This document shows positions 4,898-62,323 of a DNA stretch of 64,000 nucleotides, piece after piece. Below the pieces are notes generated by a model. The model did no database searches, was not told where the DNA came from, and saw only the letters and a list, made by a program, of their open reading frames with translations. This DNA is from Candidatus Micrarchaeota archaeon CG1_02_47_40. Lineage in GTDB: Archaea > Micrarchaeota > Micrarchaeia > Anstonellales > CG1-02-47-40. A program made the translations under genes and the position numbers. The stretch is from positions 13,114 to 77,113 of the forward strand of contig MNVE01000009.1 of assembly GCA_001871475.1 (NCBI GenBank), given 5' to 3'. Within the stretch, counting starts at the first letter, position 1. Every line of letters begins with the position of its first letter.

Positions 4898-4920
4898 ATA
4901 ATTACCTTTTAGGTAATTAT
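4898..4920. promoter_or_regulatory. perfect inverted repeat ATAATTACC-N5-GGTAATTAT immediately upstream of the AbiEi-1 start; putative autoregulatory operator
   Basis: Palindrome read directly from the sequence and ending 1 bp before ATG 4921. AbiEi antitoxins are known autorepressors that bind inverted repeats. Confidence 0.4.
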
Positions 4921-7982: not shown

Positions 7983-8067
7983 CCGAAAGATATACGGAGG
8001 GGCTGCTTAAAAAGAATGCGGTTTTTGTGGGGGTCGGAATCCTGCCCTCTGCGCTTGTATATAAACG

Positions 8068-21628: not shown

Positions 21629-23857
21629 TCACTGCTTTCCAGCCAGCACGTATTTTATCAGCTGTTCGCCTGAAGAGGAGAAGCGTATCGTGCTTATCGG
21701 AGTTTCGTAGCTCTCTATCGTTTTTGCGCTGTCAGCAATTGCAGCCGCAAACTCAACCGGTGCGCTGTAATTAAGGAGACTTGAGAGTATGATGTTTGTC
21801 ACCTCTCCTCTTCCGGTTGAGGTGTAGGAGATGAAATTAAGGTTTGTGTTCGGATTTGCCATTAAGTAGTCTGCTGTTGAGCCTGCACTGCCGCAGCTTC
21901 CGGGAATGAAGAGGATGTTTCCGGTGCTGTTTGAAAAGATGTTTGCAGGGAAGTTGTCATTCAGAGAATAAGAATGCCCTCTGAAGGTGAAGACGAGGTT
22001 TTGGTATTCGGATAACTTCTCTTTTATGAAGGATTGATTTTCCTGTTCATTTTCACCCATGTAGATAATTATTCTTCTGCCTCCCTTTTCATAGATGAAT
22101 TCGTTTTCAGAAGCCTTCTTCGGCGCTCCGTATTCTTTTTTGAACCGGTCTTTGGTCAGGCTCCAATGATCGTCTCTTTGCATGTCCTCCCTGTCAAATA
22201 CCTGCACTGCGGTTATGAAGCCGTCAGAATTGAGGTAACTGTTTGGGTTGAATTTGGTTTGTTTTTGGAGGTTTGCAATTTCTTGCTTTTGGGAGTTTGA
22301 AAGGAGGGTTGTTTCTGGATTGAGCAGATAAAGGGAGTATTCAAGGGCTCTCTGGATTTGTTTTTCCGACTCTGGAATTGCGGTCAGCCTTTCGGTTATG
22401 ATGCCCTGGAGCTTCTCCTTGTTTAGGACTTCCGACTTAATTGCGCTGTTTATTCCGTTTGCAAGAAGGGAGTAGTATTGCGCGTCAAAAACGGTGTTTG
22501 AGATTGGGGTTATAAGCGCCTTTGCCGCGCTGTTTATTTCTTCTTTTTTTAAGAGGGAGTTTCCCCTCCCGAACAATCTGTCGTAGTTTATTGCACGGAA
22601 AAGGAAGTTTCTGCCCAGTTCGGAGTCAAAGGAAACTCCTGCTATTTCCTTTAGGTATTCCTCAACTGTTTTTCCTTTCAGGTCTTTTTTTAATCTGTCA
22701 AAGAGATGGTCGTTTGTAGAGGTGTAGAAATATTCCGGTTTTGAGCAGAGGAAGGAGAATACTTGAACTGTGGTTAGAGAGGAGAGATATTTCATTCTTT
22801 CAGGCGTGTTGTCATGCAAATCGTCTAACGGTCTTCCGAGTTCTATTGCGAACATTGTGGAAAGGTGAAAGAGAAGTTGAGTTATTGTTATGTCATTTCT
22901 TGTGTATTTTAGGAATGCATTGTTTTCATCTGGGTTTGAAAGAAGGGAGGAGAAGGAGCGGAATGCTCTCCAAGTGGCATCTCCTTGGGTGTTTGAGATT
23001 ATTGCAGTAAAGATGGGGTTCCAGTATCTGTCTATCCAGCTTTCATTGAAGTTTGGGTTTGAGAGAAGGAAGGAGAAGGAGCTGAATTCTTCCCAGGTGG
23101 CGTCTCCTTTGGTGTTTGAGATTATTGCGTTTACTGTTTGGATGAGGGTGTTGATAAGGTAAACCAGACTTTGCGGATTTATCCAATCTTCTTGGAAGTT
23201 TGGGTTTGAAAGAAGGAAGGAGAAGGAGCTGAATGCGTATCTGGTGGCGTCTCCTTGGGTGTTTGAGGTTATTGCGTTTGTCGTTTGGATGAGATTGTCA
23301 ATAAGATATTGTTCGCTTTGCGGGTTTATCCAGTCTTCTGTGAAGTTTGGGTTTGAAAGAAGGGAGGAGAAGGAGCGGAATACTCTCCAAGTGGCATCTC
23401 CTTGGGTGTTTGAGATTATTGCGTTTACTGTTTGGATGAGGGTGTTGATAAGGTAAACCAGACTTTGCGGAGTTATCCAATCTTCTTGGAAGTTTGGGTT
23501 TGAAAGAAGGAAGGAGAAGTAGCTGAATGCGTAATAGGTGGCGTCTCCTTGGATGTTTTTTGCTATGTAAAGAGCTGTTTCAAAGGCTTTTTCATTGAAG
23601 TTTGGGTTTGAAAGAAGGGAGGAGAAGGAGCGGAATGCTCTCCAAGTGGCATCTCCTTGGGTGTTTTTTAGTATATGCGCGACCGCAGCATAAACGATTG
23701 TGTTTTCCTGCATCTTTTTCTTTATATCTGGCGGGATTTCGCTTTCTCTCTGTTTTATTATGTCATTCATCCAGGGTTCTATTATCGGAGTTGGGATGGT
23801 TTGGGATAAGCCGCTTGGCTTCTCTGTTTCTTGAAAGCGTATTTGGAAAATCAGCAT
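21629..23857 (-). CDS. large repeat protein: about seven ~45-aa tandem repeats N-terminal, C-terminal region with possible caspase/CHAT-like His...Cys dyad
   Basis: Repeat unit NTQGDATWRAFRSFSSLLSNPNF(N/Q)EDWI.PQS..YLI..LIQT.NAI.S. The C-terminal part reads RRIIIYMG...FTFRGHSYS...ILFIPGSCGSAGS. Confidence 0.5.
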   Translation of the reverse strand: MLIFQIRFQETEKPSGLSQTIPTPIIEPWMNDIIKQRESEIPPDIKKKMQENTIVYAAVAHILKNTQGDATWRAFRSFSSLLSNPNFNEKAFETALYIAKNIQGDATYYAFSYFSFLLSNPNFQEDWITPQSLVYLINTLIQTVNAIISNTQGDATWRVFRSFSSLLSNPNFTEDWINPQSEQYLIDNLIQTTNAITSNTQGDATRYAFSSFSFLLSNPNFQEDWINPQSLVYLINTLIQTVNAIISNTKGDATWEEFSSFSFLLSNPNFNESWIDRYWNPIFTAIISNTQGDATWRAFRSFSSLLSNPDENNAFLKYTRNDITITQLLFHLSTMFAIELGRPLDDLHDNTPERMKYLSSLTTVQVFSFLCSKPEYFYTSTNDHLFDRLKKDLKGKTVEEYLKEIAGVSFDSELGRNFLFRAINYDRLFGRGNSLLKKEEINSAAKALITPISNTVFDAQYYSLLANGINSAIKSEVLNKEKLQGIITERLTAIPESEKQIQRALEYSLYLLNPETTLLSNSQKQEIANLQKQTKFNPNSYLNSDGFITAVQVFDREDMQRDDHWSLTKDRFKKEYGAPKKASENEFIYEKGGRRIIIYMGENEQENQSFIKEKLSEYQNLVFTFRGHSYSLNDNFPANIFSNSTGNILFIPGSCGSAGSTADYLMANPNTNLNFISYTSTGRGEVTNIILSSLLNYSAPVEFAAAIADSAKTIESYETPISTIRFSSSGEQLIKYVLAGKQ
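22870..23740. repeat. approximately 135-bp tandem coding repeats (about 7 copies) inside the repeat-protein gene
   Basis: Recurring DNA blocks such as gaagtttgggtttgaaagaagg...gtggcatctccttgggtgtttgagattattgc visible on the plus strand. Confidence 0.7.
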
Positions 23858-26902: not shown

Positions 26903-27511
26903 ATGTCAAAGCTGAAAATTACCGAGGAGGTGCTCAAGGCAGTTGAATCTTCGCCATTTGGCATCGCTTCCTTGGAAGTGCTTGGAAGCCTTCAGCTCTG
27001 CTCCTTCCCTACCCTCAAAACCACGATTAGCAGGCTGAACAGGGCAGGCAGGATTATCAGGGTGAAAAGAGGCGTTTATTCCGCAACTCCTGTGCGGGAC
27101 CCTTATGCGCTTGCACAGGCGATTTTTGGCGGTTATGTTGGCTTCTCGGGAGCGCTTTATCTGCATAAGTTGAACACGGAGATGCCCTTCACTATTATCA
27201 TTGTCACGCCGCACCTCTCCAAAACAAGAAGTTTTGGCGAGTATGAGTTTAGGGCAGTCGCATTGGGAGATAGGGCGGTCGGGTTTGAACGGCTTGGAAA
27301 TTGCAATGTTTCAACGAGGGCGAAAACGCTCTTTGACTGCCTTTACCTTCCGCACTATTCCATAGAGGGACAGAAGCTCGTTGAGGCGTTTTCGCAGGCA
27401 AAGCTTGAAAGGAAGGAATGGAAAGAGTTTGAGTATTATGTCAAGAAATTTGCGGGAAAAAAGGCGGCAGTAGATATGTTTGAGGTAAAAAAGCTTATTC
27501 AAAGGAGTTGA
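26903..27511 (+). CDS. AbiEi-like antitoxin/regulator (TA module 2)
   Basis: wHTH N-terminus (LKTTISRLNRAGRIIRVKRGVY) and an SGALYLHKL AbiEi-type motif. Confidence 0.55.
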   Translation: MSKLKITEEVLKAVESSPFGIASLEVLGSLQLCSFPTLKTTISRLNRAGRIIRVKRGVYSATPVRDPYALAQAIFGGYVGFSGALYLHKLNTEMPFTIIIVTPHLSKTRSFGEYEFRAVALGDRAVGFERLGNCNVSTRAKTLFDCLYLPHYSIEGQKLVEAFSQAKLERKEWKEFEYYVKKFAGKKAAVDMFEVKKLIQRS

Positions 27512-27515
27512 TAAA

Positions 27516-28298
27516 ATGGAAATCAATCTTGAGGTGTGCAGGACTATTGCGGTGCAGTATGGGCTGCCCCTGCAGTTTGTCGCAAAGGAGTTCTACGTGT
27601 TTGACGTGCTCGGGCAGATTGCTGAACTGACTGCGGGAAAGAAGGAGCTTGTTTTCAAGGGAGGAACCGCGCTCAACAAGATTTACCTTGGGAAAATGCA
27701 GCGCTTTTCAGAGGATTTGGATTTTGATTTGAGCGCGGAGAGGGAGATTGGGCTGACGGAGTATTGCAGGAAGCTTGCAAAGGGGATTGAAGGCTACAAA
27801 ATAGGTGAATTTCGAAAAGTGCGCGGCACGCTGCAGCTTTACTGCGGCTTTGAAAGCCTGCTTGGCGGAACTGATCATGTTAGGATTGACATTGCCGCAA
27901 AAAAAATAATCACGCAAAACCCTACCGCGCTCGGAACTGCCTCCTCTTCGTATGCAGGGCGCTCCGTCGCAGGAATTAATGTGTATTCCCTTGAGGATTT
28001 GTGCGCAAGGAAGCTTTGCGCCCTCTGCGTTAGGGGGGAGGGAAAGGATTTTTACGACGTGCATAATGCCCTGCCTTTATGCGGCAGGATGAAGGGGGCG
28101 ATTGAAAAAATGCTCTTAAGCGAAGGAAGCGGGCAAACTGCGGAGGAATTTTTGGAGAAGGCAACTGCAACGGTAAAAAAGGCGGATGCAAAAAAACTTC
28201 GCAATCTTGCAAACCCGTTCATACCTGCAGGCTGCCGTCCAAAGGATTGGCTGGAGCTGAAAAACGACCTTGCAATGAAACTGGAAATGCTGGGGTGA
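27516..28298 (+). CDS. AbiEii-like nucleotidyltransferase toxin (DUF1814)
   Basis: FKGGTALNKIYLGKMQRFSEDLDFD signature. Confidence 0.7.
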   Translation: MEINLEVCRTIAVQYGLPLQFVAKEFYVFDVLGQIAELTAGKKELVFKGGTALNKIYLGKMQRFSEDLDFDLSAEREIGLTEYCRKLAKGIEGYKIGEFRKVRGTLQLYCGFESLLGGTDHVRIDIAAKKIITQNPTALGTASSSYAGRSVAGINVYSLEDLCARKLCALCVRGEGKDFYDVHNALPLCGRMKGAIEKMLLSEGSGQTAEEFLEKATATVKKADAKKLRNLANPFIPAGCRPKDWLELKNDLAMKLEMLG

Positions 28299-33751: not shown

Positions 33752-33838
33752 ATTGGCGGGTAAGTTGGAGAGGACGATGAAGGGGAAGCGATTGAAATGG
33801 AAAAAAACATAATTGTCCGCGGAGCGCGCGAGCATAAC

Positions 33839-33907
33839 CAACAGCGAAGCTGTTGGGCCGTGTCCGCAAGGACACGTAGTGCGAGAGCGTGATGAATATG
33901 CAAAATA
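33839..33907. repeat. double-hairpin element (CAACAGC-GAAG-GCTGTTG and CGTGTCC-GCAA-GGACACG) flanked by imperfect ~30-bp direct repeats of the uvrA 5' end
   Basis: 33809-33838 (ataattgtccgcggagcgcgcgagcataac) resembles 33908-33936 (the uvrA start). The two hairpins lie between. Confidence 0.5.
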
Positions 33908-36708
33908 TAGTAATACGCGGAGCGCGCGAGCATAATCTGAAAAATATTGATGTTGATATTCCAAGGGATTCCCTTACGGTAATTACCGGCATTTCGGGAA
34001 GCGGCAAAAGCACTCTTGCATTTGACACTATTTACGCGGAAGGGCAGAGAAGGTACGTTGAATCCCTCTCCACCTACGCAAGGCAGTTTCTTGGGATAAT
34101 GGGAAAGCCGGATGTGGATTCTATAGAAGGGCTTTCCCCTGCCATTTCCATAGAACAAAAAGTAAGCGGGAAAAACCCCCGCTCTACTGTTGGCACGATG
34201 ACGGAAATTTACGATTACATGAGGCTCTTGTGGGCAAGAGTAGGAAAGCCCCACTGCCCAAAATGCGGTATTGAAATCGCAAGCCAGACCCCGCAGGCGA
34301 TTGTGGAGAATATAATGAAGGGAAATGAAGGGCAGAAGCTGGAGATACTCTCCCCGATTGTGCAGGGGAAAAAGGGGGAGTATGCGAAATTGCTTGAGAG
34401 ATTATCTGAAAGGGGATTTTCCCGCGCAAGGGTGGATGGGGAGGCGTGCGAGCTATCGCAAGCCCCGCCTCTGAAAAAACAGCAGAAGCATACGATAGAA
34501 GTGCTTGTGGACAGGTTGGCAATAATTGAAGCGGAAAAGAGCAGAATTTTTGAAGCGGTGCAGACTGCGCTGAAGGAAAGCGGGGGGGCGGTGATTGCAA
34601 AAATCGGAAAGGAGGAAAAACTGTTCTCGCAGAAAAATGCCTGCCTTAACTGCGGCATTTCTGTAGGCGAATTGGAGCCTCGGATGTTTTCATTCAATTC
34701 CCCTTATGGCGCATGCGAGGAGTGCCATGGCTTGGGAGTTAAGATGGAATTTGTGCCGGAGTTGGTAATTCCGGATATGGGAAAATGCATTGCGGATGGT
34801 GGGGTTGTTCCCTGGCAGAGCGCTGTTGGAAGCTATAGGGGGAGGATGCTGGAGGCGCTTGGCAAAAAGCTTGGCTTTGATATGTACACTCCGCTTAAGG
34901 ATATTGGAGAAGAGAACCTGCGCATAATACTCTACGGAACGGAAGAGAAAGTAAAATACAAGTTCAAATCAAGGAATGGAAATTCTTCTTTTGAGTATGA
35001 AGGCGGGTTTGAGGGGGTTGTGCCAAATTTAGAGAGATTGCATAAAGAAACGAAATCCGAATGGAGAAAGGAGGAGATTGCAAAATTCATACGCGAGAGC
35101 ACCTGCCCTAAATGCTGCGGGAAAAGATTGATGGAAAATGTGCTTGCGGTGAAAATACAGGAGAAATCAATAATGGATGTTTGCGAGCTTCCAATAGGAA
35201 AAGCAGGGGAATTTTTCAAGGGGCTGAAAACAGAGGGAAACGAAGCGATTATTGCTTCACCTGTGCTGAAAGAGATAAGGGAAAGGCTTGGATTTTTGGT
35301 GAATGTGGGCGTGCCTTATCTTACCCTCTCGCGCATTTCAGGCACGCTTTCAGGGGGGGAGATGCAGAGAATACGGCTTGCCACGCAAATCGGCTCAATG
35401 CTTACGGGTGTGGTGTATGTGCTTGACGAACCCAGTATAGGCCTGCACCAAAAGGACAACGGGATGCTGATAAAGACGCTGAAATCCCTGCGGGATTTGG
35501 GAAATACTCTTTTAGTGGTGGAGCATGACGAGGAGACGATGAGAAATGCGGATTATGTGGTGGATATGGGGCCCGGTGCAGGGGAAGCGGGAGGGAGAGT
35601 AGTGGTTGCAGGGAACGTGAAGGATATTGAGAAATGTGAAGAGTCGCTGACTGGAAAATACCTTTCAGGAAAGCTGAAAATACCGATTCCACAGAAGAGG
35701 AGAAGGAGCAGTAAGTTTCTGATTATTCGCGGGTGCGGGGAAAACAACCTGAAAGACATTGATGTTTCCTTTCCCCTTGGGACTTTCACCTGCGTTACCG
35801 GCGTTTCCGGAAGCGGAAAAAGCACGCTTGTGAATGAAACTCTGCACAAGGGGCTTGCGCAGAAAATATACGGCTCAAGGGAAAGGGCGGGAAAGTTTGA
35901 GAAATTTGAGGGGCTGGATTATATTGATAAGGCAGTTTGCATAGACCAGAATCCGATTGGAAGGACGCCAAGAAGCAATCCCGCAACTTATACTGGTGTT
36001 TTTACTCCCATACGCGAGTTGTTTGCAAAAACTCCTTCTGCGCGCATAAAGGGATATTCTGCCGGGAAATTCTCCTTTAATGTTGAGGGGGGAAGATGCG
36101 AGAAATGCGAAGGGGCAGGAATGCAGAGAATAGAAATGAATTTCCTGCCTGATATATTCGTGCCCTGTGAGGAATGCCAGGGGAAACGGTATAATTCGGA
36201 GGCGCTTTCCATAACTTACAAGGAGAAGAATATTTCTGATGTTTTGAGTATGAGCGTGGATGAAGCTGCCGCGTTTTTTGAGAACATTCCGCAGATTAGG
36301 GAGAAGCTCAAAACTCTGCGGGATGTGGGGCTTGGGTATGTGAAGCTTGGGCAGAGCGCAACCACGCTTTCCGGAGGGGAGGCGCAGAGGGTGAAGCTCT
36401 CAAGCGAGCTTTCAAAGAGGGGGACGGGAAAAACAATTTACATTCTTGATGAGCCGACTGTGGGACTGCACTTTGCGGATGTTGCAAAACTGCTTGATGT
36501 GCTTGTCAGATTGGTGGAGAAGGAGAATACGGTGATTGTTATAGAGCATAATCTGGATGTGATTAAGTGCGCGGATTATGTTATTGATTTGGGTCCGGAA
36601 GGAGGGGAGGGAGGCGGGAGAGTAGTTGCGCTTGGGACTCCGGAAGAGGTTGCGCAAAACAATAAAAGCTGTACAGGAGAGTATCTGAAGGGAGTATTGA
36701 AGTCATGA
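33889..36708 (+). CDS. uvrA: excinuclease ABC subunit A
   Basis: Two ABC ATPase modules (GISGSGKST, GVSGSGKST), zinc-finger Cys clusters, 939 aa. Confidence 0.95.
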   Translation: MMNMQNIVIRGAREHNLKNIDVDIPRDSLTVITGISGSGKSTLAFDTIYAEGQRRYVESLSTYARQFLGIMGKPDVDSIEGLSPAISIEQKVSGKNPRSTVGTMTEIYDYMRLLWARVGKPHCPKCGIEIASQTPQAIVENIMKGNEGQKLEILSPIVQGKKGEYAKLLERLSERGFSRARVDGEACELSQAPPLKKQQKHTIEVLVDRLAIIEAEKSRIFEAVQTALKESGGAVIAKIGKEEKLFSQKNACLNCGISVGELEPRMFSFNSPYGACEECHGLGVKMEFVPELVIPDMGKCIADGGVVPWQSAVGSYRGRMLEALGKKLGFDMYTPLKDIGEENLRIILYGTEEKVKYKFKSRNGNSSFEYEGGFEGVVPNLERLHKETKSEWRKEEIAKFIRESTCPKCCGKRLMENVLAVKIQEKSIMDVCELPIGKAGEFFKGLKTEGNEAIIASPVLKEIRERLGFLVNVGVPYLTLSRISGTLSGGEMQRIRLATQIGSMLTGVVYVLDEPSIGLHQKDNGMLIKTLKSLRDLGNTLLVVEHDEETMRNADYVVDMGPGAGEAGGRVVVAGNVKDIEKCEESLTGKYLSGKLKIPIPQKRRRSSKFLIIRGCGENNLKDIDVSFPLGTFTCVTGVSGSGKSTLVNETLHKGLAQKIYGSRERAGKFEKFEGLDYIDKAVCIDQNPIGRTPRSNPATYTGVFTPIRELFAKTPSARIKGYSAGKFSFNVEGGRCEKCEGAGMQRIEMNFLPDIFVPCEECQGKRYNSEALSITYKEKNISDVLSMSVDEAAAFFENIPQIREKLKTLRDVGLGYVKLGQSATTLSGGEAQRVKLSSELSKRGTGKTIYILDEPTVGLHFADVAKLLDVLVRLVEKENTVIVIEHNLDVIKCADYVIDLGPEGGEGGGRVVALGTPEEVAQNNKSCTGEYLKGVLKS

Positions 36709-55017: not shown

Positions 55018-55719
55018 ATGGAGATATCGGTGATAATACCCGCTTATATGGAGGAAGGGGGAATAGAGCGCTGCTTAAAGGCAATAGTAGACCAGGAGTA
55101 TGAGGGGGGAGTGGAAATAATAGTGGCGGACGCTGAAAGCACTGACAAAACATTGGAGATTGCAAAAAAATACACCGATGATGCGTATGTTTTCAAAAAA
55201 TCAACCATTTCAGCAGGAAGGAAGGACGGCGCTGCCAAAGCGCACGGGGATATTCTGGTTTCTACTGATGCAGACAGCGTGCCTGATAAAATGTGGCTTT
55301 CGGAACTTGTAAAGGCGTTTGAAGACCAGAGCGTGGTGTGCGTGCACGGAAACGTTTACATGCTTGACGCGGGCCGGCTTGATGAGTTTTTCATAAAGCA
55401 CGTGATGCCCCTTTATTACGGATTTTTCAACTTCCTCGGACACCCGACCGGACCCGGCTCAAACATTGCCATAAGAAAGACTGCTTACGAGAAAATAGGG
55501 GGGTACGACCCGCTTTTGGTTACCTGCGAGGATTTGGATTTGCAGAGGAGGGTGAAAAAGGCAGGGAAGGTAGTGTTTGCCCCCAAAGCAATCGTTTACA
55601 CCTCCTCAAGAAGATTGCGCGCCTGGGGGCATCCCAAGTTCTTTTTCTTCCATTTCACCAATCTTCTGATGAACATACTTTTCAACAAGCCGGCGGAGAG
55701 GTATGAGCCGATACGGTGA
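55018..55719 (+). CDS. family-2 glycosyltransferase
   Basis: ISVIIPAYMEE and DAD (VSTDADS) motifs of GT-A fold GT2 enzymes. Confidence 0.7.
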   Translation: MEISVIIPAYMEEGGIERCLKAIVDQEYEGGVEIIVADAESTDKTLEIAKKYTDDAYVFKKSTISAGRKDGAAKAHGDILVSTDADSVPDKMWLSELVKAFEDQSVVCVHGNVYMLDAGRLDEFFIKHVMPLYYGFFNFLGHPTGPGSNIAIRKTAYEKIGGYDPLLVTCEDLDLQRRVKKAGKVVFAPKAIVYTSSRRLRAWGHPKFFFFHFTNLLMNILFNKPAERYEPIR

Positions 55720-55787
55720 ATGAAGAGGAGAGTTAATTTTTATCTGCCTGCTTCGTTTTTATTTGTTGAATAATACAAGTTTAGTAT

Positions 55788-55933
55788 GCAGGGGTGCCAG
55801 AGTTTGGTCAATTGGGCAGGACTTAAGAGCGCACTGGCGCGATGAAATCCTGTGGACTAGCTCCTTCGCAGGTTCTCGCAAATAATGCCAATATCGGGGC
55901 ATTGCTGGCGGCCTAAAAATCCTGCCCCCTGCA
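55788..55933 (+). tRNA. tRNA-Leu(UAA) with two introns (about 19 nt at the canonical 37/38 site and about 41 nt in the T-loop); mature length about 86 nt
   Basis: Manual fold: acceptor GCAGGGG/CCCCUGC; D-stem CCA/UGG; anticodon stem CAGGA/UCCUG; loop CUUAAGA (anticodon UAA); long variable arm GGA-CUAGC-UCC; T-stem GCAGG/CCUGC; T-loop UUC[intron]AAAU; discriminator A followed by TTTT. Confidence 0.7.
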
Positions 55934-55973
55934 TTTTGCTTGCAAAATGCGGGGCCTTGTCCGCAAGGACAAG
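55931..55973 (+). terminator. tRNA trailer: oligo-T plus two hairpins (GCATTTTGC-TT-GCAAAATGC and CTTGTCC-GCAA-GGACAAG, a GNRA tetraloop)
   Basis: Palindromes read directly from the sequence. Archaeal tRNA transcription terminates at T-runs. Confidence 0.35.
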
Positions 55974-56071
55974 TGTCCCCTGCATTCATTTATTTTTCTT
56001 CTTTTCCTTCCTCAAAACCAAAGGTTTATATGCTTTGTATTACGAAACTATCGTTTGGAGATAGTATTGTT

Positions 56072-56878
56072 ATGCAAAAGATAAAACGTTTCGGAGAGAT
56101 GGAATTGCGGCTCATGTTCACGCTTGAACAGCGCGAGAATCAGCTGTTCAGCATTGCGGATGCCAAGCGCATACTCGGCAGTTCAGACGCTTCCGTTTGG
56201 AATGTGCTCAAGCGCCTGATGAAAAAAAGAAGGGTTATCCGCCTGCAGAGGGGCGCCTATCTTTTTGCCCCGCTGCGCAGCGGCGAGGAGGGCTTATGGT
56301 CGGAAGATGCGTTTCGGGTGGTCCCCATGCTCGTAGGAAAGAGAAGATTTTACATCGGTTTTGTTTCAGCTATGAATCACTGGGGGATGACGGAGCAGCT
56401 GCCCATAGTGGTTTATGTTGCCCTGAAACGCCAGAAAAGAGGCATTGATGCGGTGCAGTCCCGGTTTGTTTTCGTCAAAAAAAAGCGGCTTGGGAAGTTT
56501 TTGCAGATTTCTCTAGGCGATACGAAGGTTAATATTTCCACGGTTGAGCAGACGATACTGGACGGGCTGTCCTTCCCGGAATACTGCCTTGGAATCGCCG
56601 GAATTGCCAAGGCAATCTGGTTTGTGCAAAAAGATATTGAGTGGCAAAAGCTTCTTTCCCTTGCAAAAAGCGAAAAAAACGCCGTGCGGAGGCGTTTGGG
56701 ATATCTTCTTGAGATTCTTGGTTTCAGAAGGCAGGCAAAGGAGTTGGAAGGTGTTTTTTCCGGCTATTTCTGGCTGGACCCGTCAAATCTGAGGGATGAC
56801 TTTGAATATTCAAAAAAATGGGGATTGAAGATAAATCTGAAAAAACGGGATTTGCTTGAATTCATGGAGGTGCACTGA
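56072..56878 (+). CDS. AbiEi-like antitoxin/regulator (TA module 4)
   Basis: wHTH (SIADAKRILGSSDASVWNVLKRLMKKRRVIRLQRGAY) and a FVSAMNHWGMTEQLP AbiEi motif. Start set at an internal Met. Confidence 0.55.
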   Translation: MQKIKRFGEMELRLMFTLEQRENQLFSIADAKRILGSSDASVWNVLKRLMKKRRVIRLQRGAYLFAPLRSGEEGLWSEDAFRVVPMLVGKRRFYIGFVSAMNHWGMTEQLPIVVYVALKRQKRGIDAVQSRFVFVKKKRLGKFLQISLGDTKVNISTVEQTILDGLSFPEYCLGIAGIAKAIWFVQKDIEWQKLLSLAKSEKNAVRRRLGYLLEILGFRRQAKELEGVFSGYFWLDPSNLRDDFEYSKKWGLKINLKKRDLLEFMEVH

Positions 56879-57628
56879 ATGAACGCCGAAGAATTGAACA
56901 GGAAGGCGGTATCCGCCGGCATTCCGCGTGCAATAATGGAAAAGGATTACGTGCTTTCGGTTGTGCTCTTCCATATTTCAAAATCCGTCCTTGCTGAAAG
57001 GATGCTTTTCAAGGGAGGCACTGCACTCAAGAAGGTTTATTTTCCCGATGCAAGATTTTCCGAAGATTTGGATTTTGCTGCACGGGCATCTGATGAGAGG
57101 ACGATAATGGATGAACTGAAGTCGCTTTTTGAAGACAGAGAACTCAAAGGCATCAGATTCGCATTCCTGGAAAAAGAAAGGTCGCACGCGGGCTTGAGGG
57201 CCGCCCTGAAATTTTCCTTCATTCTCGGGCATACGCAGAGAATCCGCTTTGATTTCAGTTTCCGCGAAAACGTCGCGTCAAAGCCGGAGAAAAGGGCGAT
57301 TGTGGATGAATATAATCTTGGCAATGCGGAATTGCTTGTGATTCCGCTTGAGGAGCTGTTTGCGGAAAAAATTAACGCGCTTTTTGGAAGAATTGCCGTC
57401 AGAGATTTGTATGATGTCTGGTTTCTGTTCAAACGCGGCATAAAGGCGGATAAGCTGATGATAAAAAGGAAGTTTGCCTATTACAATGAAGAATACGAAC
57501 CCTCAAAACTGAAAGGAAGGATAAACTTGTTCAGAAAAGACTGGAAGAGAGATTTGGCTCAATTCATGAATGACGTTCCGGATTTTGATGGAATTGCGGA
57601 TGAAACTGTGAAATTTCTTGAAGAATAA
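56879..57628 (+). CDS. AbiEii-like nucleotidyltransferase toxin (DUF1814)
   Basis: FKGGTALKKVYFPDARFSEDLDFA signature. It starts 1 bp after the upstream stop. Confidence 0.7.
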   Translation: MNAEELNRKAVSAGIPRAIMEKDYVLSVVLFHISKSVLAERMLFKGGTALKKVYFPDARFSEDLDFAARASDERTIMDELKSLFEDRELKGIRFAFLEKERSHAGLRAALKFSFILGHTQRIRFDFSFRENVASKPEKRAIVDEYNLGNAELLVIPLEELFAEKINALFGRIAVRDLYDVWFLFKRGIKADKLMIKRKFAYYNEEYEPSKLKGRINLFRKDWKRDLAQFMNDVPDFDGIADETVKFLEE

Positions 57629-57809
57629 TTGCTTGGTGGTTGGAGGATGCCAAAAACCCTTGTAGCCTTTGAAAGCAAATATGAAAGCGCAAGCGAAACT
57701 GCTTTTCGTAAAGGGTGAGGAATTACCACATAGTGTTTGAGGCAAGCGGTTCAGGCGTAATTTTATACCGCGTCAGAAAGAGAGATGATGCGTATGATTG
57801 AAATTCCAA

Positions 57810-58706
57810 TCATATGGTTGAATTTTTCAGCTTTGACAATTGAGAGTTAACATAGGCAAGATTTTCTTCTATTTCTTTCTTTTCTTCTTGGTCATCAGTA
57901 TGTTCCGAAGCCAGTTCTAGGTCTATCTTCGCTTTGTCAAACCTCTTAATTTGAACATAGGCCCTCCCGCGATTTATATAAGCCTTGAAAAAATTCGAAT
58001 CAAACGTAATCGATTTGGCATAATCTTTTATTGCCTGTTGAAAGTTATTGTAATATGTCCGATGTCTATTGCCTCTGCTGTTGTATGCGACAGCGTATTT
58101 AGGTATGCGTTTTACCGCTTCATTGTAGCACGCTAAACTTCGGTCAAAATGTTCTTCAAGACCAAACTTCAAGGCAGCCCGATAAAGCAATCCTTCGTTT
58201 CTGCTTCTTTCATGATAATGACCCAATGCGTGGTAGGTTATAGCTTGAATTTGTTTCACATCTGAACCTTTATAGTATCTTATTTTTTTATGAACTGGAA
58301 GCGCATTTTGAGTGGGATAAAACTGTCCGTTTGTCGTTTCAAAATAACCATTTTCTGTTCCAATAAAAACGTGCTCTGCCACAAGAATTATTTTGGATTT
58401 TACCCCTAATTCACGTAGAATGTCAAATACTAAAAAGGAGAGCGTGTCGCAATCCCAATCTCCATTATTTAACGCAGAATAAAGCAAATCGTCACGAATA
58501 TCAGATTTCGCAGTTATGCCTTGTGATTTAAGTGCACTTGCCAGATTGACAAACGATTTCTTTTCCTTACAGAGTGTTTGAATGCCGTTCGCTACTGTTG
58601 AAACGATGCGAGTATATTGCGAAGTATAAGCTGGTAGTTCTCCACATCTGTTGAGGGCTTTTAGCTCTATTTTCAGGCGTTCAACGCCCGCATAAATTTT
58701 CTTCAT
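57810..58706 (-). CDS. transglutaminase-like (Cys-His-Asp) domain protein with C-terminal TPR repeats
   Basis: GDWDCDTLSFLVFDIL (Cys), LVAEHVFIGTENG (His), then TPR-like YNEAVK..AYNSRG.. repeats. Lies in the AT-rich island. Confidence 0.4.
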   Translation of the reverse strand: MKKIYAGVERLKIELKALNRCGELPAYTSQYTRIVSTVANGIQTLCKEKKSFVNLASALKSQGITAKSDIRDDLLYSALNNGDWDCDTLSFLVFDILRELGVKSKIILVAEHVFIGTENGYFETTNGQFYPTQNALPVHKKIRYYKGSDVKQIQAITYHALGHYHERSRNEGLLYRAALKFGLEEHFDRSLACYNEAVKRIPKYAVAYNSRGNRHRTYYNNFQQAIKDYAKSITFDSNFFKAYINRGRAYVQIKRFDKAKIDLELASEHTDDQEEKKEIEENLAYVNSQLSKLKNSTI

Positions 58707-58736
58707 AAAAAGATGTAACGACGGAAGGATAAAAAC

Positions 58737-59165
58737 TTAATAGGGGTGGATTCTCCTCTTCACCCACGCTGCCAAACCCGCAATTATTCCGCCGAGGAGA
58801 GTGTTCTCCACCACTATTATCGCAAGCATAAAGAGCAGTGAAGGGATATCTGGCAAACGTATGCCAAGCACCGGAGCATTAAGAAAAAGATGGCTAAAAA
58901 GCTCCGAAAGGCAGAACGCGAGCGCTGAAGCAAATGAAACAAGCGCGCCGTATTTTGAAGCTGTGAAGATGCCTTCTTTTGCATAAATAATGCCAGTATA
59001 CGCAACTACTGCCAATCCCGCAAGCGAGAAAATAATGTTTGCAGGCGAGTAGAAAAGGACTGGTGGAATAACTCCTGATAAAATAAGCACCCCTTCAAGA
59101 AGGGAGATGAAAACTGCAAGGAAAACAAGAGGGCATGGGCTTTGCATTGCTTTTTTATCTTTCAC
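58737..59165 (-). CDS. small integral membrane protein
   Basis: Four predicted TM helices. Confidence 0.35.
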   Translation of the reverse strand: MKDKKAMQSPCPLVFLAVFISLLEGVLILSGVIPPVLFYSPANIIFSLAGLAVVAYTGIIYAKEGIFTASKYGALVSFASALAFCLSELFSHLFLNAPVLGIRLPDIPSLLFMLAIIVVENTLLGGIIAGLAAWVKRRIHPY

Positions 59166-59178
59166 GAGAGTTCACCTC

Positions 59179-59904
59179 TTAAAAATCCATTTTGATTTTC
59201 TCTTTAGCGGAATATAATTCAGGCAAGTGCTTTTCGCTTATTCTGAAACCAGCCCCATGGTCCCTAACTGATCCATTTTCTTTAATGTGCATGCGAAATT
59301 CCCAAACAATCACGCCATCAAGCAGCAGCTGTTCAAAATTCTCTTCGCTTAAATCGGAAAGGAAATAAGCTTCAGTATAATGGAATTGCTCTTTGCGTCT
59401 TTTCTTTCGTGTTTCGGCAAACACTATCAGCAGATTTTGGGATAATTTTTCTTTTATCTTGCCCATTAATTCTTTGATTTCAAAATAGCAAACGGCCCCA
59501 TTTTTTTTATGAATTATGTTAATCCTGTTGAGGGGCTTATTAATTTCCAATTTGAGCCTGTGCGTATTAAAATCAACGGCAGTAATTGTCACCTTTAATC
59601 CTTGTCTGCCTTTTGCGTCAGAATAGCCATATTTTCTTATTATTTTTTCGGCAGATAATGGATTCCAATGAGGCGATTTTGTTATCAAAGTCACTCTAGA
59701 ACTGGCAGTTGCTCGCTGGGATTTCAACTCTATTATTCGTCCTTCAAACTGAAAATCATTGGAAACGTTGTTTTCAGGTATGCCGAATAGCTCTTCAAGA
59801 GTTTTGCCTATGCCCGTGTTTCCTGAACGAAGCGATTCTATAAAACCCAATTTATAGATTCCCTTGAGCTTTTTTCTGAAATTTATAACTGGAAGCTTGC
59901 CCAT
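59179..59904 (-). CDS. MvaI/BcnI-family type IIP restriction endonuclease
   Basis: The C-terminal block IVFAETRKKRRKEQFHYTEAYFL...DGVIVWEF...RDHGAGFRI matches remembered BcnI/MvaI conserved blocks. Adjacent to a convergently arranged methyltransferase. Confidence 0.55.
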   Translation of the reverse strand: MGKLPVINFRKKLKGIYKLGFIESLRSGNTGIGKTLEELFGIPENNVSNDFQFEGRIIELKSQRATASSRVTLITKSPHWNPLSAEKIIRKYGYSDAKGRQGLKVTITAVDFNTHRLKLEINKPLNRINIIHKKNGAVCYFEIKELMGKIKEKLSQNLLIVFAETRKKRRKEQFHYTEAYFLSDLSEENFEQLLLDGVIVWEFRMHIKENGSVRDHGAGFRISEKHLPELYSAKEKIKMDF

Positions 59905-59946
59905 AGCGGGGCTTGCTCAATACAGAGTTATAAACCGCACACGCGC

Positions 59947-61272
59947 CTATTTGCGCACCACAATAATACTCTCTTTGTCCATAGTCCTCCCAACAATTCC
60001 CGCTTCATTTGTGGGGCTGTTGATTAGGGGAATTGTTTTATATGGAATATTTCTGCCGTTGTTCTCAATAGTTTCAAAGCCGATTTCCTCGCATAATTCC
60101 GAGGTTATGGTGCTTGAAGGGATAGATGTTTCTTTAACTGTCCTATTGCCGATTACTATGCCGGCAACCCCGTCTTTACGTAAAACTCGGTGCATTTGCT
60201 TGTAAACGTCATTTAGGTCTACAAAAAACCATGCTACTTCTTCGGCACGCTGAATATCCTTGCTAGCGATCGATTTAAGCACTTTATCAAGCGATTTAGA
60301 TTTTAAGGAGTAGTCGTAATTCTTCCTTAATGAGCCGCCTAAACTGGCTTTATCTAATTTAGTAATTTCCTCGTAACTTCCAATCTCATCGCAGTCTAGC
60401 CCTAACCATTGAAGAGAAAGCCTGGAAAATTGACCGTATGCTACTGTTGTTCTGCTGTCGCCATAAGGAGGGGAGGTGACTATAAGGTCAATGCTATTGT
60501 CTTTGATTATATTTTTTGTATATCTTGCGTCGGCTTTGTAAACACGGCAATGGCTTTGTAAATTGGTGGATTGGTTAAATTCCAGCAGACAGGACATTGA
60601 TTTTTTGAGCGCTTCTTTGAATATTTTCATAGTATTTGGATTGTGTTTTTCCAGGAGAGTTGGAGAATAACGGTATAACTTAAATTCGCCTGAGCGTGTG
60701 TTTGAAGCTTTGCGGACAGTTAATGAAAATGGAACTAAAAGAAAATTTCGTATTTCTTTATCCTCAACTTTAAAGATTTGCTCCCGAATTATCGCTAAAT
60801 CTGATATTATTTGGGGTTTAAACCAGAATTCTATATTCCCGAAATCTGGAGGAGATGGCTTTCGTTTATTTGACGTATCAAACTTGTTAAATTGAGAATT
60901 TAATTTTTCAAGAAACTCAAAAACTTGTTTCTTTAAATAATTGGTTTCAATTGGCGTTGTTTTCACTTTGGAGAGCAGGATAGCCAGGGGATTGAGGTCT
61001 GTTCCAATAGCCTGCCTTTCTGACAGCACTGCTTCCACAAGAACCGTGCCGCTGCCGCACATTGGGTCATAAACAAGCTCATCTGTTTGAGAGTATTTTT
61101 TTATCAGCTTTTCGGCTATCTGCGGCACCATCCTGGCAGGATAAGTATGCATGCCGTGAGTATTATGCCGTGTATCTGCTGTTTCAAAATCCCAATCTTC
61201 GGTCTTTTGGATTTGAACAACTGCCTGCCCGGAGGAATACATCTCAAGAGTTGAATCTTTCATGTTTTCCAT
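59947..61272 (-). CDS. N4-cytosine/N6-adenine DNA methyltransferase
   Basis: Motif I VYDPMCGSGT and motif IV TSPPYGD (SPPY). Confidence 0.8.
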   Translation of the reverse strand: MENMKDSTLEMYSSGQAVVQIQKTEDWDFETADTRHNTHGMHTYPARMVPQIAEKLIKKYSQTDELVYDPMCGSGTVLVEAVLSERQAIGTDLNPLAILLSKVKTTPIETNYLKKQVFEFLEKLNSQFNKFDTSNKRKPSPPDFGNIEFWFKPQIISDLAIIREQIFKVEDKEIRNFLLVPFSLTVRKASNTRSGEFKLYRYSPTLLEKHNPNTMKIFKEALKKSMSCLLEFNQSTNLQSHCRVYKADARYTKNIIKDNSIDLIVTSPPYGDSRTTVAYGQFSRLSLQWLGLDCDEIGSYEEITKLDKASLGGSLRKNYDYSLKSKSLDKVLKSIASKDIQRAEEVAWFFVDLNDVYKQMHRVLRKDGVAGIVIGNRTVKETSIPSSTITSELCEEIGFETIENNGRNIPYKTIPLINSPTNEAGIVGRTMDKESIIVVRK

Positions 61273-61361
61273 TGCATCAAAAAGATTTATTAACCTATCT
61301 ATTAACTATATTGTAATTAACTTGTAATTAAGTTATTATAAAAGTGTGACTAAATTTAGTT
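61273..61361. promoter_or_regulatory. AT-rich divergent promoter region with direct repeats TTGTAATTAA x2 and palindrome TAACTT-GTAATTA-AGTTA; candidate C-box-like operator
   Basis: Read directly from the sequence between the divergent MTase and small wHTH gene. Confidence 0.3.
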
Positions 61362-61640
61362 ATGGCAATTAATTGGAACCATTATGGATTTGTAAAGGCA
61401 AGCAAATACCGAAGTAAAATCGTGGAGGCTTTGGCTGCCGCCCCAAAAACTCCCTCGCAAATCGCAAACGAGATTAAGCTTTTCAAAACCCATACCAGTA
61501 CTGTTTTGAAAGAACTTGTAAATGAAAAGATAGTGGAATGCCTGACGCCAAACTTAAGACGCGGGAAGATATTTGGCTTAACCGCGAATGGAAAGGCAGT
61601 TGCTTCTCAAATGCAAGGCAAAATATCAAAAACAAGATGA
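61362..61640 (+). CDS. small winged-helix regulator, candidate controller (C) protein of the R-M system
   Basis: 92 aa with a wHTH (PKTPSQIANEIKLFKTHTSTVLKELVNEKIV). Divergent from the MTase. Confidence 0.4.
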   Translation: MAINWNHYGFVKASKYRSKIVEALAAAPKTPSQIANEIKLFKTHTSTVLKELVNEKIVECLTPNLRRGKIFGLTANGKAVASQMQGKISKTR

Positions 61641-61644
61641 TGAT

Positions 61645-61800
61645 TTGCAACGAGGGCTCTCGGCGGGCAAGCCCGCCGTATCCGCCAGCTCGTTGCAAAA
61701 TTTTGAAAATCGCTCCTCCCTGCGCGAAGCGCGGGGTATTGAGCAGACGAAACCTGCGAAATACGTATCCGAAGGATACGGTATCCGCGTAAAGCGATTT
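61645..61800. repeat. hairpin-rich repeat element (module A TTGCAACGAG..CTCGTTGCAAAATTTTGAAAA; module B GAGCAGACGAA..CTGCGAAATACGT.TCCGA.GGA) related to 41750-41798 and 20669-20700
   Basis: Shared modules identified by eye. Nested palindromes CGGCGGG-CAAG-CCCGCCG, CGCG-AAG-CGCG, GTATCC-GAAG-GATAC. Confidence 0.55.
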
Positions 61801-61852
61801 TCAAATGAGCTAATTCTTCCCTTCGCTCTTCCCGCAAAAATAAGCGCGCTTC

Positions 61853-62323
61853 TCACCTCATCGGCGTTATTATCACTATATCCGCAGTATTTCTCAATGC
61901 AACGGAAAAGCCCGGCTCCGCGCCTATTACAATGGTTTCCTTTCCAAGCTCTTTTGCTTTTATCAAAACAGGACGGAAATCATTATCCCTTGTCATTAAG
62001 GCAATCTTGTTGATTGCCGGATTGAAAACCTGCTGCATCGCTTCAACCGCCATTGTCACATCCACGTCTCCTGTTGTGATTATCGGCTCAAATCCCTGGT
62101 TGGTCATTGCCTCTATCAGCTTGTCGGAAGCATACTGGTCAAGGAATACCTTTGCCACTTTTATCTGCCCGTGCTTCTCCACTTCCCTTTTCACGGCAAT
62201 CAAATCCGGCTTCATCTCCCGTCTTATGGTGTTGGGGCCGTCTATGAGAAGAGCTATGTTCCCCTCTACCTTCTTCTGCTTTATCATTTTCTTGATGGAT
62301 TCAATCAAATTCACGTTTGGCAT
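61853..62323 (-). CDS. NYN/LabA-like (PIN-related) domain protein
   Basis: [10 protein letters not shown] start typical of NYN domains, with conserved acidic residues. Confidence 0.55.

What the first reader, a model, noticed from the sequence alone, without database searches (positions are those of the whole stretch)
55788..55984. tRNA-Leu(UAA) with two introns, including a non-canonical T-loop intron, followed by a double-hairpin trailer
The 146-nt locus folds into a complete tRNA-Leu only if a ~19-nt intron at 37/38 and a ~41-nt intron inside the T-loop (UUC|intron|AAAU) are removed. Multi-intron tRNAs are confined to particular archaeal lineages, so this is a useful taxonomic marker and a point where standard gene finders may fail. 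The tRNA 3' end CCCCTGCA is repeated at 55977-55984, which weakly suggests an integration scar for the downstream island.
Basis: seen in the sequence. Interest (0 to 1): 0.5.

Follow-up and report, generated by a model that had tools for sequence, protein, structure and literature searches.

The report
Two-intron tRNA-Leu gene in a Micrarchaeote
This is a real leucine tRNA gene from a tiny groundwater archaeon, interrupted by two short introns (one in the T-loop) so that standard tRNA finders miss it; such genes are already known in this lineage, so it is a useful annotation fix rather than a discovery.

Summary
Window 55788-55933 (+) encodes tRNA-Leu(UAA) interrupted by a 19-nt intron at 37/38 (55828-55846) and a 41-nt intron at 56/57 in the T-loop (55876-55916). 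ARAGORN and Rfam find no tRNA in the whole 64 kb. A covariance model built from 12 homologues, with the window excluded, gives one hit: exactly 55788-55933, 70.4 bits, E 1.5e-14, with its two insertions at the proposed junctions. The spliced 86-mer aligns end to end with an intronless Micrarchaeota homologue. Both junctions fit bulge-helix-bulge geometry only in relaxed form. Intron 1 has 3-4-3 spacing but only 2 of 4 central pairs. Intron 2 is HBh' type with no outer helix. The host is Candidatus Micrarchaeota archaeon CG11_big_fil_rev_8_21_14_0_20_47_5 (DPANN), a lineage where disrupted tRNA genes, T-loop introns and a broad-specificity endonuclease are published. It is therefore a new member of a known kind. 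The trailer hairpins and the repeated CCCCTGCATT are real. They bracket only a 41-nt palindromic insert, not the downstream AbiE/restriction-modification island, which has no integrase and no far-end repeat. A sibling hairpin insert flanked by a 20-nt duplication sits at the uvrA 5' end; its origin is unexplained.

The parts
55756..55764 (+). A/T-rich box TTTTTATTT, 24-32 nt upstream of the tRNA 5' end; candidate archaeal TATA element
   Evidence: Read from the sequence. Homologous Micrarchaeota genes have A/T boxes at similar distance. Function is inferred, not tested.
55788..55827 (+). Exon 1: tRNA positions 1-37 (acceptor 5' strand GCAGGGG, D-arm, anticodon stem 5' strand, loop CUUAAG with anticodon UAA)
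   Evidence: covariance-model alignment; 5'-half pattern shared with 119 archaeal tRNA-Leu(UAA) loci.
55828..55846 (+). Intron 1, 19 nt, canonical position 37/38 (AGCGCACUGGCGCGAUGAA). It carries an internal 4-bp hairpin GCGC/GCGC as h', and both splice sites lie in 3-nt bulges (AG|A and AA|A). The central helix CUUA/GAUG has only 2 of 4 pairs.
   Evidence: tied for top BHB score among 14,448 candidate sites; shuffled-intron P=0.0075.
55847..55875 (+). Exon 2: positions 38-56 (anticodon stem 3' strand, long variable arm with GGA/UCC stem, T-stem 5' strand GCAGG, UUC)
55876..55916 (+). Intron 2, 41 nt, non-canonical position 56/57 in the T-loop. Relaxed HBh' motif: central helix A51G52G53U54 / GCCU (4 of 4 pairs), 5' bulge UC|U, h' CGC/GCG, 3' site AA|A with no closing outer helix. 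It also has an inner hairpin AAUGCC/GGCAUU.
   Evidence: only 0.12% of all site/length combinations show H 4/4 with h'>=3; P=0.0007; HBh' conformer -16.1 against MFE -18.2 kcal/mol.
55917..55933 (+). Exon 3: positions 57-73 (AAAU, T-stem 3' strand CCUGC, acceptor 3' strand CCCCUGC, discriminator A73). No CCA is encoded.
55926..55935 (+). Direct repeat copy 1, CCCCTGCATT (last 8 nt of the tRNA plus TT)
55931..55950 (+). Hairpin 1, GCATTTTGC-TT-GCAAAATGC. It extends to CCCC(T)GCATTTTGC / GCAAAATGCGGGG, so its 3' arm is an inverted copy of the tRNA 3' end.
   Evidence: (alignment 55927-55956).
55955..55973 (+). Hairpin 2, CCTTGTCC-GCAA-GGACAAG, flanked by GGGG and CCCC. With the flanks it can form a longer hairpin, AUGCGGGG...CCCCUGCAU.
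   Evidence: A second copy with two compensatory changes lies at 33858-33876.
55977..55986 (+). Direct repeat copy 2, CCCCTGCATT, followed by a T-rich tract (to about 56006). It is probably the displaced ancestral tRNA 3' end with its native trailer/terminator.
Evidence: In one search, TCCCCTGCATTCATT is 15/15 identical to the tRNA end plus trailer of Micrarchaeota locus L021; by inspection of the two sequences the identity extends to 16 nt (TCCCCTGCATTCATTT).
56072..61272 (.). Adjacent defence-gene cluster, not part of the tRNA. It holds AbiEi (56072/56099-56878 +), AbiEii (56879-57628 +), a TPR protein (57810-58706 -), a 142-aa ORF (58737-59165 -), an MvaI/BcnI-type endonuclease (59179-59904 -) and an N4/N6 DNA methylase (59947-61272 -). 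GC is 0.40-0.44.

Best explanation
The locus is a functional gene for tRNA-Leu(UAA) of a Micrarchaeota (DPANN) archaeon. It is transcribed as a 146-nt or longer precursor from an A/T-rich promoter box. The archaeal tRNA-splicing endonuclease (EndA) would cut at two relaxed bulge-helix-bulge motifs. [quoted passage not shown] An RtcB-type ligase would then join the three exons into an 86-nt class II tRNA with a long variable arm and discriminator A73, and CCA would be added afterwards. Intron 2 offers only an HBh' motif and intron 1 has a mismatched central helix. The enzyme must therefore be a broad-specificity type, as described for the epsilon2 EndA of Micrarchaeum (ARMAN-2) and for loop-bearing DPANN EndAs. 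Shown here: gene boundaries, exon junctions, cloverleaf, and the register of the splice motifs. Inferred: transcription, cleavage, ligation and enzyme type. The double-hairpin trailer is a separate 41-nt palindromic insert. It sits between the tRNA 3' end and a displaced copy of that end, and does not mark the boundary of the downstream defence island.
For: The covariance model R1 was built from 12 homologues without the window. It gives a single hit at 55788-55933 (70.4 bits, E 1.5e-14), covers model positions 1-85, has no non-standard pair, and puts its insertions at the two proposed junctions. The in-silico spliced product is called tRNA-Leu(taa). It aligns end to end with the intronless homologue L029 and with 12 other spliced homologues. 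Cloverleaf covariation is strong: 94.6% of cells paired, 13 pairs changed on both sides, and 0 of 500 shuffles reach this. Four of the five T-stem pairs, which span intron 2, covary. The BHB register agrees. Intron 1 has exact 3-4-3 geometry with h=6 and h'=4 and ties for the best of 14,448 candidate sites. Intron 2 has H 4/4 and h' 3 bp exactly at the cloverleaf-defined junction. Shuffled-intron controls give P=0.0075 and P=0.0007. The host is identified by a deoxyhypusine synthase 100% identical to that of Ca. Micrarchaeota archaeon CG11_big_fil_rev_8_21_14_0_20_47_5. Other DPANN tRNA-Leu(UAA) genes have the same architecture: L078 (Micrarchaeota) and L008 (Aenigmatarchaeota) have two introns, and L013 has a T-loop intron only. 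Published work reports that ARMAN-2 has 56% disrupted tRNA genes, T-loop introns and an epsilon2 EndA that cleaves relaxed motifs (PMC3239211). 56/57 is a listed archaeal intron position (PMC4090602). DPANN EndAs with insert loops go with tRNA gene disruption (PMC5829648).
Against: There are no expression or splicing data. Neither junction forms a strict hBHBh' motif: the central helix of intron 1 has U-U and A-G mismatches, and intron 2 lacks the outer helix, ranking only about the top 1-3% in a naive BHB scan. Thermodynamic folding of the precursor does not give the cloverleaf or the BHB conformers as the MFE. No EndA gene lies in the window, so the enzyme type in this genome is unknown. I could not check whether a second, uninterrupted tRNA-Leu(UAA) exists elsewhere in the genome, which would allow this copy to be a relic. 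The two closest relatives have no tRNA at the syntenic site.
Confidence: 0.88

Rival explanations
1. The locus is a decaying tRNA pseudogene. The 41-nt T-loop insertion and the trailer duplication are damage from insertions or recombination at a rearrangement breakpoint, and a different intact gene supplies tRNA-Leu(UAA).
For: The locus sits exactly at a synteny break relative to the two closest genomes, which lack a tRNA there. Both BHB motifs are imperfect. The trailer carries an extra inverted copy and an extra direct copy of the 3' end.
Against: All 24 cloverleaf pairs and all conserved tRNA nucleotides are intact. The insertion boundaries coincide with BHB-register helices at P about 1e-3. 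Other DPANN genomes carry T-loop introns in the same tRNA. The locus is identical in independent assemblies of the population.
Confidence: 0.07
2. The gene is real, but the T-loop intron is excised at a different junction, for example 59/60 as in ARMAN-2, L078 and L008. Alternatively, intron 1 is excised inside the anticodon to give tRNA-Ser(UGA), as ARAGORN -i proposes.
For: ARAGORN accepts many alternative T-loop deletions and calls Ser(tga) with an intron at i(38,19) when only intron 2 is removed. 59/60 is the best-supported T-loop position in L008, L078 and the L142 tRNA.
Against: Only 56/57 restores the canonical 7-nt UUCAAAU loop found in the homologues. No other junction gives the same mature sequence. 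The BHB register at 56/57 is H 4/4 plus h' 3. Discriminator A73 and the intronless homologues with loop CUUAAGA indicate Leu(UAA). ARAGORN makes the same Ser(tga) call for five homologues: L018, L021, L033, L064 and L111.
Confidence: 0.04
3. The repeated tRNA 3' end is the attachment-site scar of a tRNA-targeting integrative element that delivered the downstream AbiE/restriction-modification island.
For: The defence genes lie directly downstream of a tRNA, have lower GC (0.40-0.44 against about 0.47) and are absent from the syntenic site of relatives. The second copy plus the T-rich flank looks like a displaced original tRNA end.
Against: Both repeat copies lie upstream of the island, 41 nt apart. 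No integrase or recombinase lies in 56-62 kb. No further copy of the 3' exon (up to 3 mismatches) or of the 8-10-mer lies near the far end of the island. No viral contig carries a matching attachment site. The flanking blocks differ from the relatives through a larger rearrangement, with about 30 kb (LSM to CarbK) missing between NYN and GT2, rather than a simple insertion.
Confidence: 0.06

Closest known systems
Disrupted tRNA genes of Candidatus Micrarchaeum acidiphilum ARMAN-2 (Fujishima et al. 2011, PMC3239211)
   Same: Same phylum-level lineage. tRNA genes there have introns at non-canonical positions, including the T-loop, have multiple introns per gene and relaxed BHB motifs, and are missed by default tRNA finders.
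   Different: The published ARMAN-2 examples are tRNA-Pro(GGG) with introns at 53/54 and 59/60 and tRNA-Cys with an hBH intron at 59/60. Here the gene is tRNA-Leu(UAA), with introns at 37/38 and 56/57 and an HBh' motif. The genome is a neutral-pH groundwater Micrarchaeote whose EndA type was not determined.
Multi-intron tRNA genes of Thermoproteales/Crenarchaeota (Sugahara 2007/2008; reviewed in PMC4090602)
   Same: Introns at 56/57 and other non-canonical sites, HBh'/hBH relaxed motifs, and dependence on a broad-specificity EndA.
   Different: A different superphylum. Those genomes use (alpha-beta)2 EndA with the Crenarchaea-specific loop. No evidence was found here for families of similar introns that would indicate intron transposition.
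tRNA-Leu(UAA) genes of other DPANN genomes found here (L078 Micrarchaeota SKW29; L008 and L013 Aenigmatarchaeota)
   Same: The same tRNA with a T-loop intron, with or without the canonical intron. All are missed by ARAGORN even in intron mode.
   Different: Their T-loop introns fit best at 59/60 (58/59 for L013), with the T-stem as outer helix (hBH type). The window's intron is at 56/57 and uses part of the T-stem as the central helix. The intron sequences are unrelated.
tRNA-gene-targeted integrative elements and genomic islands
   Same: A variable, lower-GC defence-gene cluster next to a tRNA 3' end, and a duplicated tRNA 3' terminus.
   Different: No integrase is present. The duplication is 10 nt, its copies are 41 nt apart, and it does not bracket the island.

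Membership tests
tRNA-Leu (class II tRNA, archaeal) | Complete cloverleaf: 7-bp acceptor, D, anticodon and T arms, after removal of intervening sequences | tested here: met
   Covariance model R1: 70.4 bits, E 1.5e-14, model positions 1-85, no non-standard pair. ARAGORN calls the spliced sequence. Covariation across 14 sequences.
tRNA-Leu (class II tRNA, archaeal) | Anticodon UAA in a 7-nt loop with U33 and a purine at 37 | tested here: met
   The loop is CUUAAGA after splicing at 37/38, identical to the intronless homologues L029 and L068.
tRNA-Leu (class II tRNA, archaeal) | Long variable arm and discriminator A73 (the Leu versus Ser distinction, from general knowledge of archaeal identity elements) | tested here: met
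   The variable arm has a 3-bp stem that covaries in the homologues. A73 is invariant in the alignment.
tRNA-Leu (class II tRNA, archaeal) | Expression and aminoacylation with leucine | not testable with these tools
   No transcriptome or biochemistry is available.
Archaeal BHB (EndA-dependent) tRNA introns | Strict hBHBh': two 3-nt bulges separated by a fully paired 4-bp helix and flanked by helices | tested here: not met
   Intron 1 has the right 3-4-3 spacing with h=6 and h'=4, but its central helix has only 2 of 4 pairs. Intron 2 has no outer helix h.
Archaeal BHB (EndA-dependent) tRNA introns | Relaxed motif (HBh' or hBH) in register with the exon junctions defined by the mature tRNA | tested here: met
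   Intron 2 has H 4/4, 5' bulge UC|U, h' 3 bp and a 3' cut 2 nt after H. Only 0.12% of site/length combinations do as well, and the shuffled-intron P is 0.0007. Intron 1 gives P=0.0075.
Archaeal BHB (EndA-dependent) tRNA introns | A genome-encoded splicing endonuclease able to cut relaxed motifs (epsilon2, (alpha-beta)2 or loop-bearing alpha4) | not tested
   No tRNA_int_endo domain protein lies among the window's ORFs. The expectation comes from the literature only.
Archaeal BHB (EndA-dependent) tRNA introns | Homologous genes lacking the intron, with the junction exactly at the proposed site | tested here: met
   L029 and L068 are intronless. Seven Micrarchaeota homologues lack the T-loop intron, and the spliced window sequence aligns without gaps at both junctions.
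tRNA-targeted integrative island | Integrase or recombinase gene at one end of the island | tested here: not met
   Pfam on the ORFs between 56 and 62.3 kb shows AbiEi/AbiEii, TPR, REase, MTase, an HTH protein and NYN, with no integrase.
tRNA-targeted integrative island | Direct repeats of the tRNA 3' segment bracketing the island | tested here: not met
   The only second copy is 41 nt downstream of the first, before the island. None lies at the far end.
tRNA-targeted integrative island | An empty site (tRNA without island) in close relatives | tested here: inconclusive
   The closest relatives lack both the tRNA and the island at this site and have a different gene block there instead.

The most novel reading that the evidence does not exclude
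The 41-nt palindromic insert after the tRNA is flanked by the 10-nt duplication CCCCTGCATT. Its sibling is a 78-nt insert at the uvrA 5' end, flanked by a perfect 20-nt duplication. The two share the hairpin GGCC-N-TGTCCGCAAGGACA-N-G with compensatory changes. Together they could be footprints of an undescribed small hairpin-bearing insertion or recombination process in Micrarchaeota that duplicates gene termini. It may be linked to the coming and going of AbiE toxin-antitoxin cassettes: one sits right after the tRNA insert here, and another occupies the uvrB-uvrA spacer in the nearest relative.
Probability: 0.12. Interest if true: 0.5.

Novelty: new member of a known kind. Interest (0 to 1): 0.3.

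Why it matters
Standard pipelines (ARAGORN; the Rfam tRNA model) report no tRNA in this 64-kb stretch. The genome would therefore look as if it lacked the decoder for UUA/UUG codons, which feeds the recurrent impression that DPANN genomes have incomplete tRNA sets. Resolving this gene adds a clean example of a 37/38 plus 56/57 two-intron tRNA in a non-acidophilic Micrarchaeote. That implies broad-specificity RNA splicing extends beyond ARMAN-2 within the phylum. Intron content of the same tRNA also varies sharply among related lineages (none, one long intron, or two), which bears on the debate over gain and loss of archaeal tRNA introns. It does not open a new kind of biology.

Tried and rejected
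- ARAGORN with default, intron and relaxed settings on the window found nothing or spurious kb-sized 'introns'.
- Rfam at gathering score and at E<=10 gave only chance hits to miRNA, snoRNA and U12 models.
- Thermodynamic folding of the precursor gives neither the cloverleaf nor the BHB conformers as MFE, so it is uninformative.
- I looked for an orthologous tRNA at the syntenic site of the two closest genomes; it is absent.
- I scanned viral contigs for the 3' exon and for hairpin 2 as possible attachment sites. The hits were unrelated coding sequences or contexts.
- I tested whether the uvrA insert or the 51-nt trailer unit could be BHB introns; neither has a BHB register.
- I tested whether the AbiE modules of the window are flanked by direct repeats or are close relatives of the uvrB-uvrA AbiE cassette of L146. 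They have no flanking repeats and are only 25-37% identical.
- I considered the hairpins as an AbiEi operator and rejected the idea, because the two inverted repeats differ in sequence and lie about 50-100 nt upstream of the likely TATA box (inference).
- A weak match to the 3' exon at 8037-8053 is not a tRNA.
- I found no sequence relatives of either intron in 1.1 Mb of fetched loci.
- EndA is not encoded in the window.

Full report
**What is there.** ARAGORN finds no tRNA anywhere in the 64 kb, with default, intron or relaxed settings. Rfam finds no tRNA at gathering score in the window, nor at E<=10 in 55600-56100. If 55828-55846 (19 nt) and 55876-55916 (41 nt) are deleted from 55788-55933, the remaining 86 nt are called tRNA-Leu(taa) by ARAGORN. 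Deleting only one segment gives no correct call.

**Independent test of the gene model.**
- I collected archaeal tRNA-Leu(UAA) genes with a degenerate 5'-half pattern: 119 genome loci and 3 metagenome loci.
- I spliced or took intact 12 DPANN and other archaeal homologues and built covariance model R1 from them, with the window sequence left out.
- Against the whole window, R1 gives one hit: 55788-55933 on the + strand, 70.4 bits, E 1.5e-14, model positions 1-85, no non-standard pair.
- Its two local-end insertions fall after CUUAAG (20 nt for 1 model position, meaning A38 plus a 19-nt intron) and after GGUUC (45 nt for 4 positions, meaning AAAU plus a 41-nt intron).
- The spliced sequence aligns end to end with the intronless Micrarchaeota gene L029 and 12 others.
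- On that alignment the cloverleaf has 94.6% paired cells and 13 pairs with changes on both sides (0 of 500 shuffles reach this). Four of the five T-stem pairs, which bracket intron 2, covary.
- The conserved features U8, A14, G18G19, U33, G53-T54-T55-C56, A58, C61, a long variable arm and A73 are all present. No CCA is encoded.

**Splice motifs.** I applied the canonical register: cleavage after the second nucleotide of each 3-nt bulge, with the bulges separated by 4 bp.
- Intron 1 has the exact 3-4-3 spacing. The outer helix is the anticodon stem (6 pairs), the bulges are AG|A and AA|A, and the inner helix is GCGC/GCGC. Its central helix CUUA/GAUG has only C-G and U-A pairs.
- In a scan of 14,448 site/length combinations, intron 1 ties for the best score.
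- Intron 2 uses A51-G52-G53-U54 paired to intron GCCU (4 of 4), a 5' bulge UC|U, an inner helix CGC/GCG, and a 3' cut AA|A two nucleotides after the central helix. It has no outer helix, so it is the relaxed HBh' type.
- Only 0.12% of all combinations have H 4/4 with h'>=3.
- With shuffled introns the observed register is reached at P=0.0075 for intron 1 and P=0.0007 for intron 2.
- The HBh' conformer is 2 kcal/mol above the T-stem conformer.
- ARAGORN tolerates many other T-loop deletions. The 56/57 junction therefore rests on the canonical UUCAAAU loop, the covariance-model alignment and the BHB register together.
- ARAGORN's alternative 'Ser(tga)' call is an artefact of introns ending in ...GAA, and it recurs in five homologues: L018, L021, L033, L064 and L111.

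**Host and context.**
- The adjacent deoxyhypusine synthase is 100% identical to that of Candidatus Micrarchaeota archaeon CG11_big_fil_rev_8_21_14_0_20_47_5. The UvrB matches isolate CG1_02_47_40. Identical DNA occurs in other assemblies of the population.
- Among Micrarchaeota tRNA-Leu(UAA) genes, L029 has no intron. L021, L039, L064, L076, L085, L125 and L127 each have one 37/38 intron of 54-191 nt.
- L078 has two introns (44 nt, plus 43 nt in the T-loop, best placed at 59/60). The Aenigmatarchaeota genes L008 and L013 also have T-loop introns.
- A relative's contig (L142) carries another disrupted tRNA with a 91-nt T-loop intron at 59/60.
- The literature already describes this biology. 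ARMAN-2 has 56% disrupted tRNA genes, T-loop introns and an epsilon2 EndA that cuts relaxed motifs (PMC3239211). 56/57 is a listed archaeal intron position (PMC4090602). DPANN EndAs with insert loops correlate with tRNA disruption and with incomplete tRNA predictions (PMC5829648).
- No EndA is encoded in the window.

**The trailer.**
- The last 8 nt of the tRNA plus TT (CCCCTGCATT, 55926-55935) recur at 55977-55986.
- Between the copies lie hairpin 1 (55931-55950) and hairpin 2 (55955-55973, CCTTGTCC-GCAA-GGACAAG). The 3' arm of hairpin 1 plus GGGG is an inverted copy of the tRNA end.
- The region folds with z about -4 to -5.
- The second copy and its T-rich flank (TCCCCTGCATTCATT) match 15/15 nt of the tRNA end plus trailer of Micrarchaeota locus L021. 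By inspection of the two sequences the identity runs one T further, to 16 nt.
- The simplest reading is therefore a 51-nt insertion (41 nt plus a 10-nt duplication) that displaced the ancestral 3' end and terminator. This is an inference.
- Hairpin 2 has one other copy in the window, 33858-33876, with two compensatory changes. There it is again the second of two hairpins, inside a 78-nt insert flanked by a perfect 20-nt duplication of the uvrA 5' end.
- Of 47 short-range direct repeats in the window, these two have the most structured spacers.
- In the nearest relative, the uvrB-uvrA spacer holds an RHH-AbiEi-AbiEii cassette flanked by a 16-nt repeat. In the window an AbiE module follows the tRNA trailer. 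The AbiE proteins are only 25-37% identical, so this link is circumstantial.

**The island.**
- Downstream lie AbiEi/AbiEii, a TPR protein, a 142-aa ORF, an MvaI/BcnI-type endonuclease, an N4/N6 methylase and two small ORFs. The conserved block NYN-TatD-eIF5A-S24e follows. GC falls to 0.40-0.44.
- Relatives are collinear with the window from 45.0 to 55.7 kb, but after GT2 they continue with CarbK/OMPdc. Their NYN gene is followed by LSM and about 30 kb of other genes.
- The tRNA and the defence cluster therefore sit at a rearrangement junction.
- There is no integrase, no far-end copy of the tRNA 3' segment, and no matching viral attachment site. The 'integration scar for the island' reading is not supported.

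**Verdict.** This is a real, correctly delineated two-intron tRNA-Leu(UAA) gene, and an example of an already described DPANN/Micrarchaeota phenomenon. It is valuable for annotation and mildly interesting for intron turnover. The unexplained part is the small duplication-flanked hairpin insert and its sibling at uvrA.

Noticed in passing
window 33797-33935: The uvrB-uvrA spacer holds a 14-codon relic of the uvrA 5' end (MEKNIIVRGAREHN) followed by a 78-nt insert, and only then the real uvrA start (VMNMQNIVIRGAREHNLKN). The insert has two hairpins, the second being GGCCGTGTCCGCAAGGACACG, a compensated copy of the tRNA-trailer hairpin. The insert is flanked by a perfect 20-nt direct repeat, CGCGGAGCGCGCGAGCATAA (33818-33837 and 33916-33935). 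It has no BHB register. Origin unknown.
   Followed up: partly
L146 2972-5400 (GCA_040960315.1, nearest relative): An RHH + AbiEi + AbiEii cassette is inserted between uvrB and uvrA, flanked by a 16-nt direct repeat (ACCGGATTTCCACCCT / ACCGGATTCCCACCCT). This is the same intergenic spot that carries the hairpin insert in the window.
   Followed up: partly
window 4789-6497; 26903-28298; 56072-57628: Three separate AbiEi/AbiEii type IV toxin-antitoxin modules lie in 64 kb. They are only 25-32% identical to one another.
   Followed up: partly
window 55720-62320 compared with L001, L003, L142: There is a synteny break. Relatives have NYN-LSM-(about 30 kb)-OMPdc-CarbK-GT2. The window has NYN-(defence cluster)-tRNA-Leu-GT2, and the 30-kb block is absent from the window.
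   Followed up: partly
L142 about 11190-11375, minus strand: A disrupted tRNA (acceptor GGGCTTG/CGAGTCC with G3-U70) has an anticodon-region intron and a 91-nt T-loop intron at 59/60 (H 4/4, h' 2, h 5). The intron contains repeated GACTTAAGAC / GTCTTAGGTC motifs. Its identity (Ala-GGC or Met-CAT) is not resolved.
   Followed up: partly
L078, L008, L013 (genome-contig loci): tRNA-Leu(UAA) genes of Micrarchaeota SKW29 and two Aenigmatarchaeota carry T-loop introns (43, 70 and 80 nt). ARAGORN misses them even in intron mode.
   Followed up: yes
L018, L021, L033, L064, L111 and the window locus: ARAGORN -i labels tRNA-Leu(UAA) genes whose 37/38 intron ends in ...GAA as 'tRNA-Ser(tga)' with an intron inside the anticodon. 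This is a systematic mis-assignment.
   Followed up: yes
window 23048-23558 (inside ORF 21629-23857, minus strand, 742 aa, no Pfam hit): A tandem array of 3.5 copies of a 147-nt (49-codon) unit, 80% matching, lies inside a large protein of unknown family.
   Followed up: partly
window 55949-55984: GCGGGG-[23 nt hairpin]-CCCUGCA forms an acceptor-stem-like minihelix with a G3-U pair and a 3' A. The Leu covariance model scores it 5.9 bits (E 0.9), which is not significant.
   Followed up: partly
L142 8742-9890: An IS605 OrfB/TnpB-like gene is inserted between eIF5A and TatD in the relative. It is absent at the same spot in the window genome.
   Followed up: no
window 2786-3877: A Trm1 gene (tRNA N2,N2-dimethylguanosine-26 methyltransferase) lies in the same window. 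The tRNA-Leu has G26.
   Followed up: no
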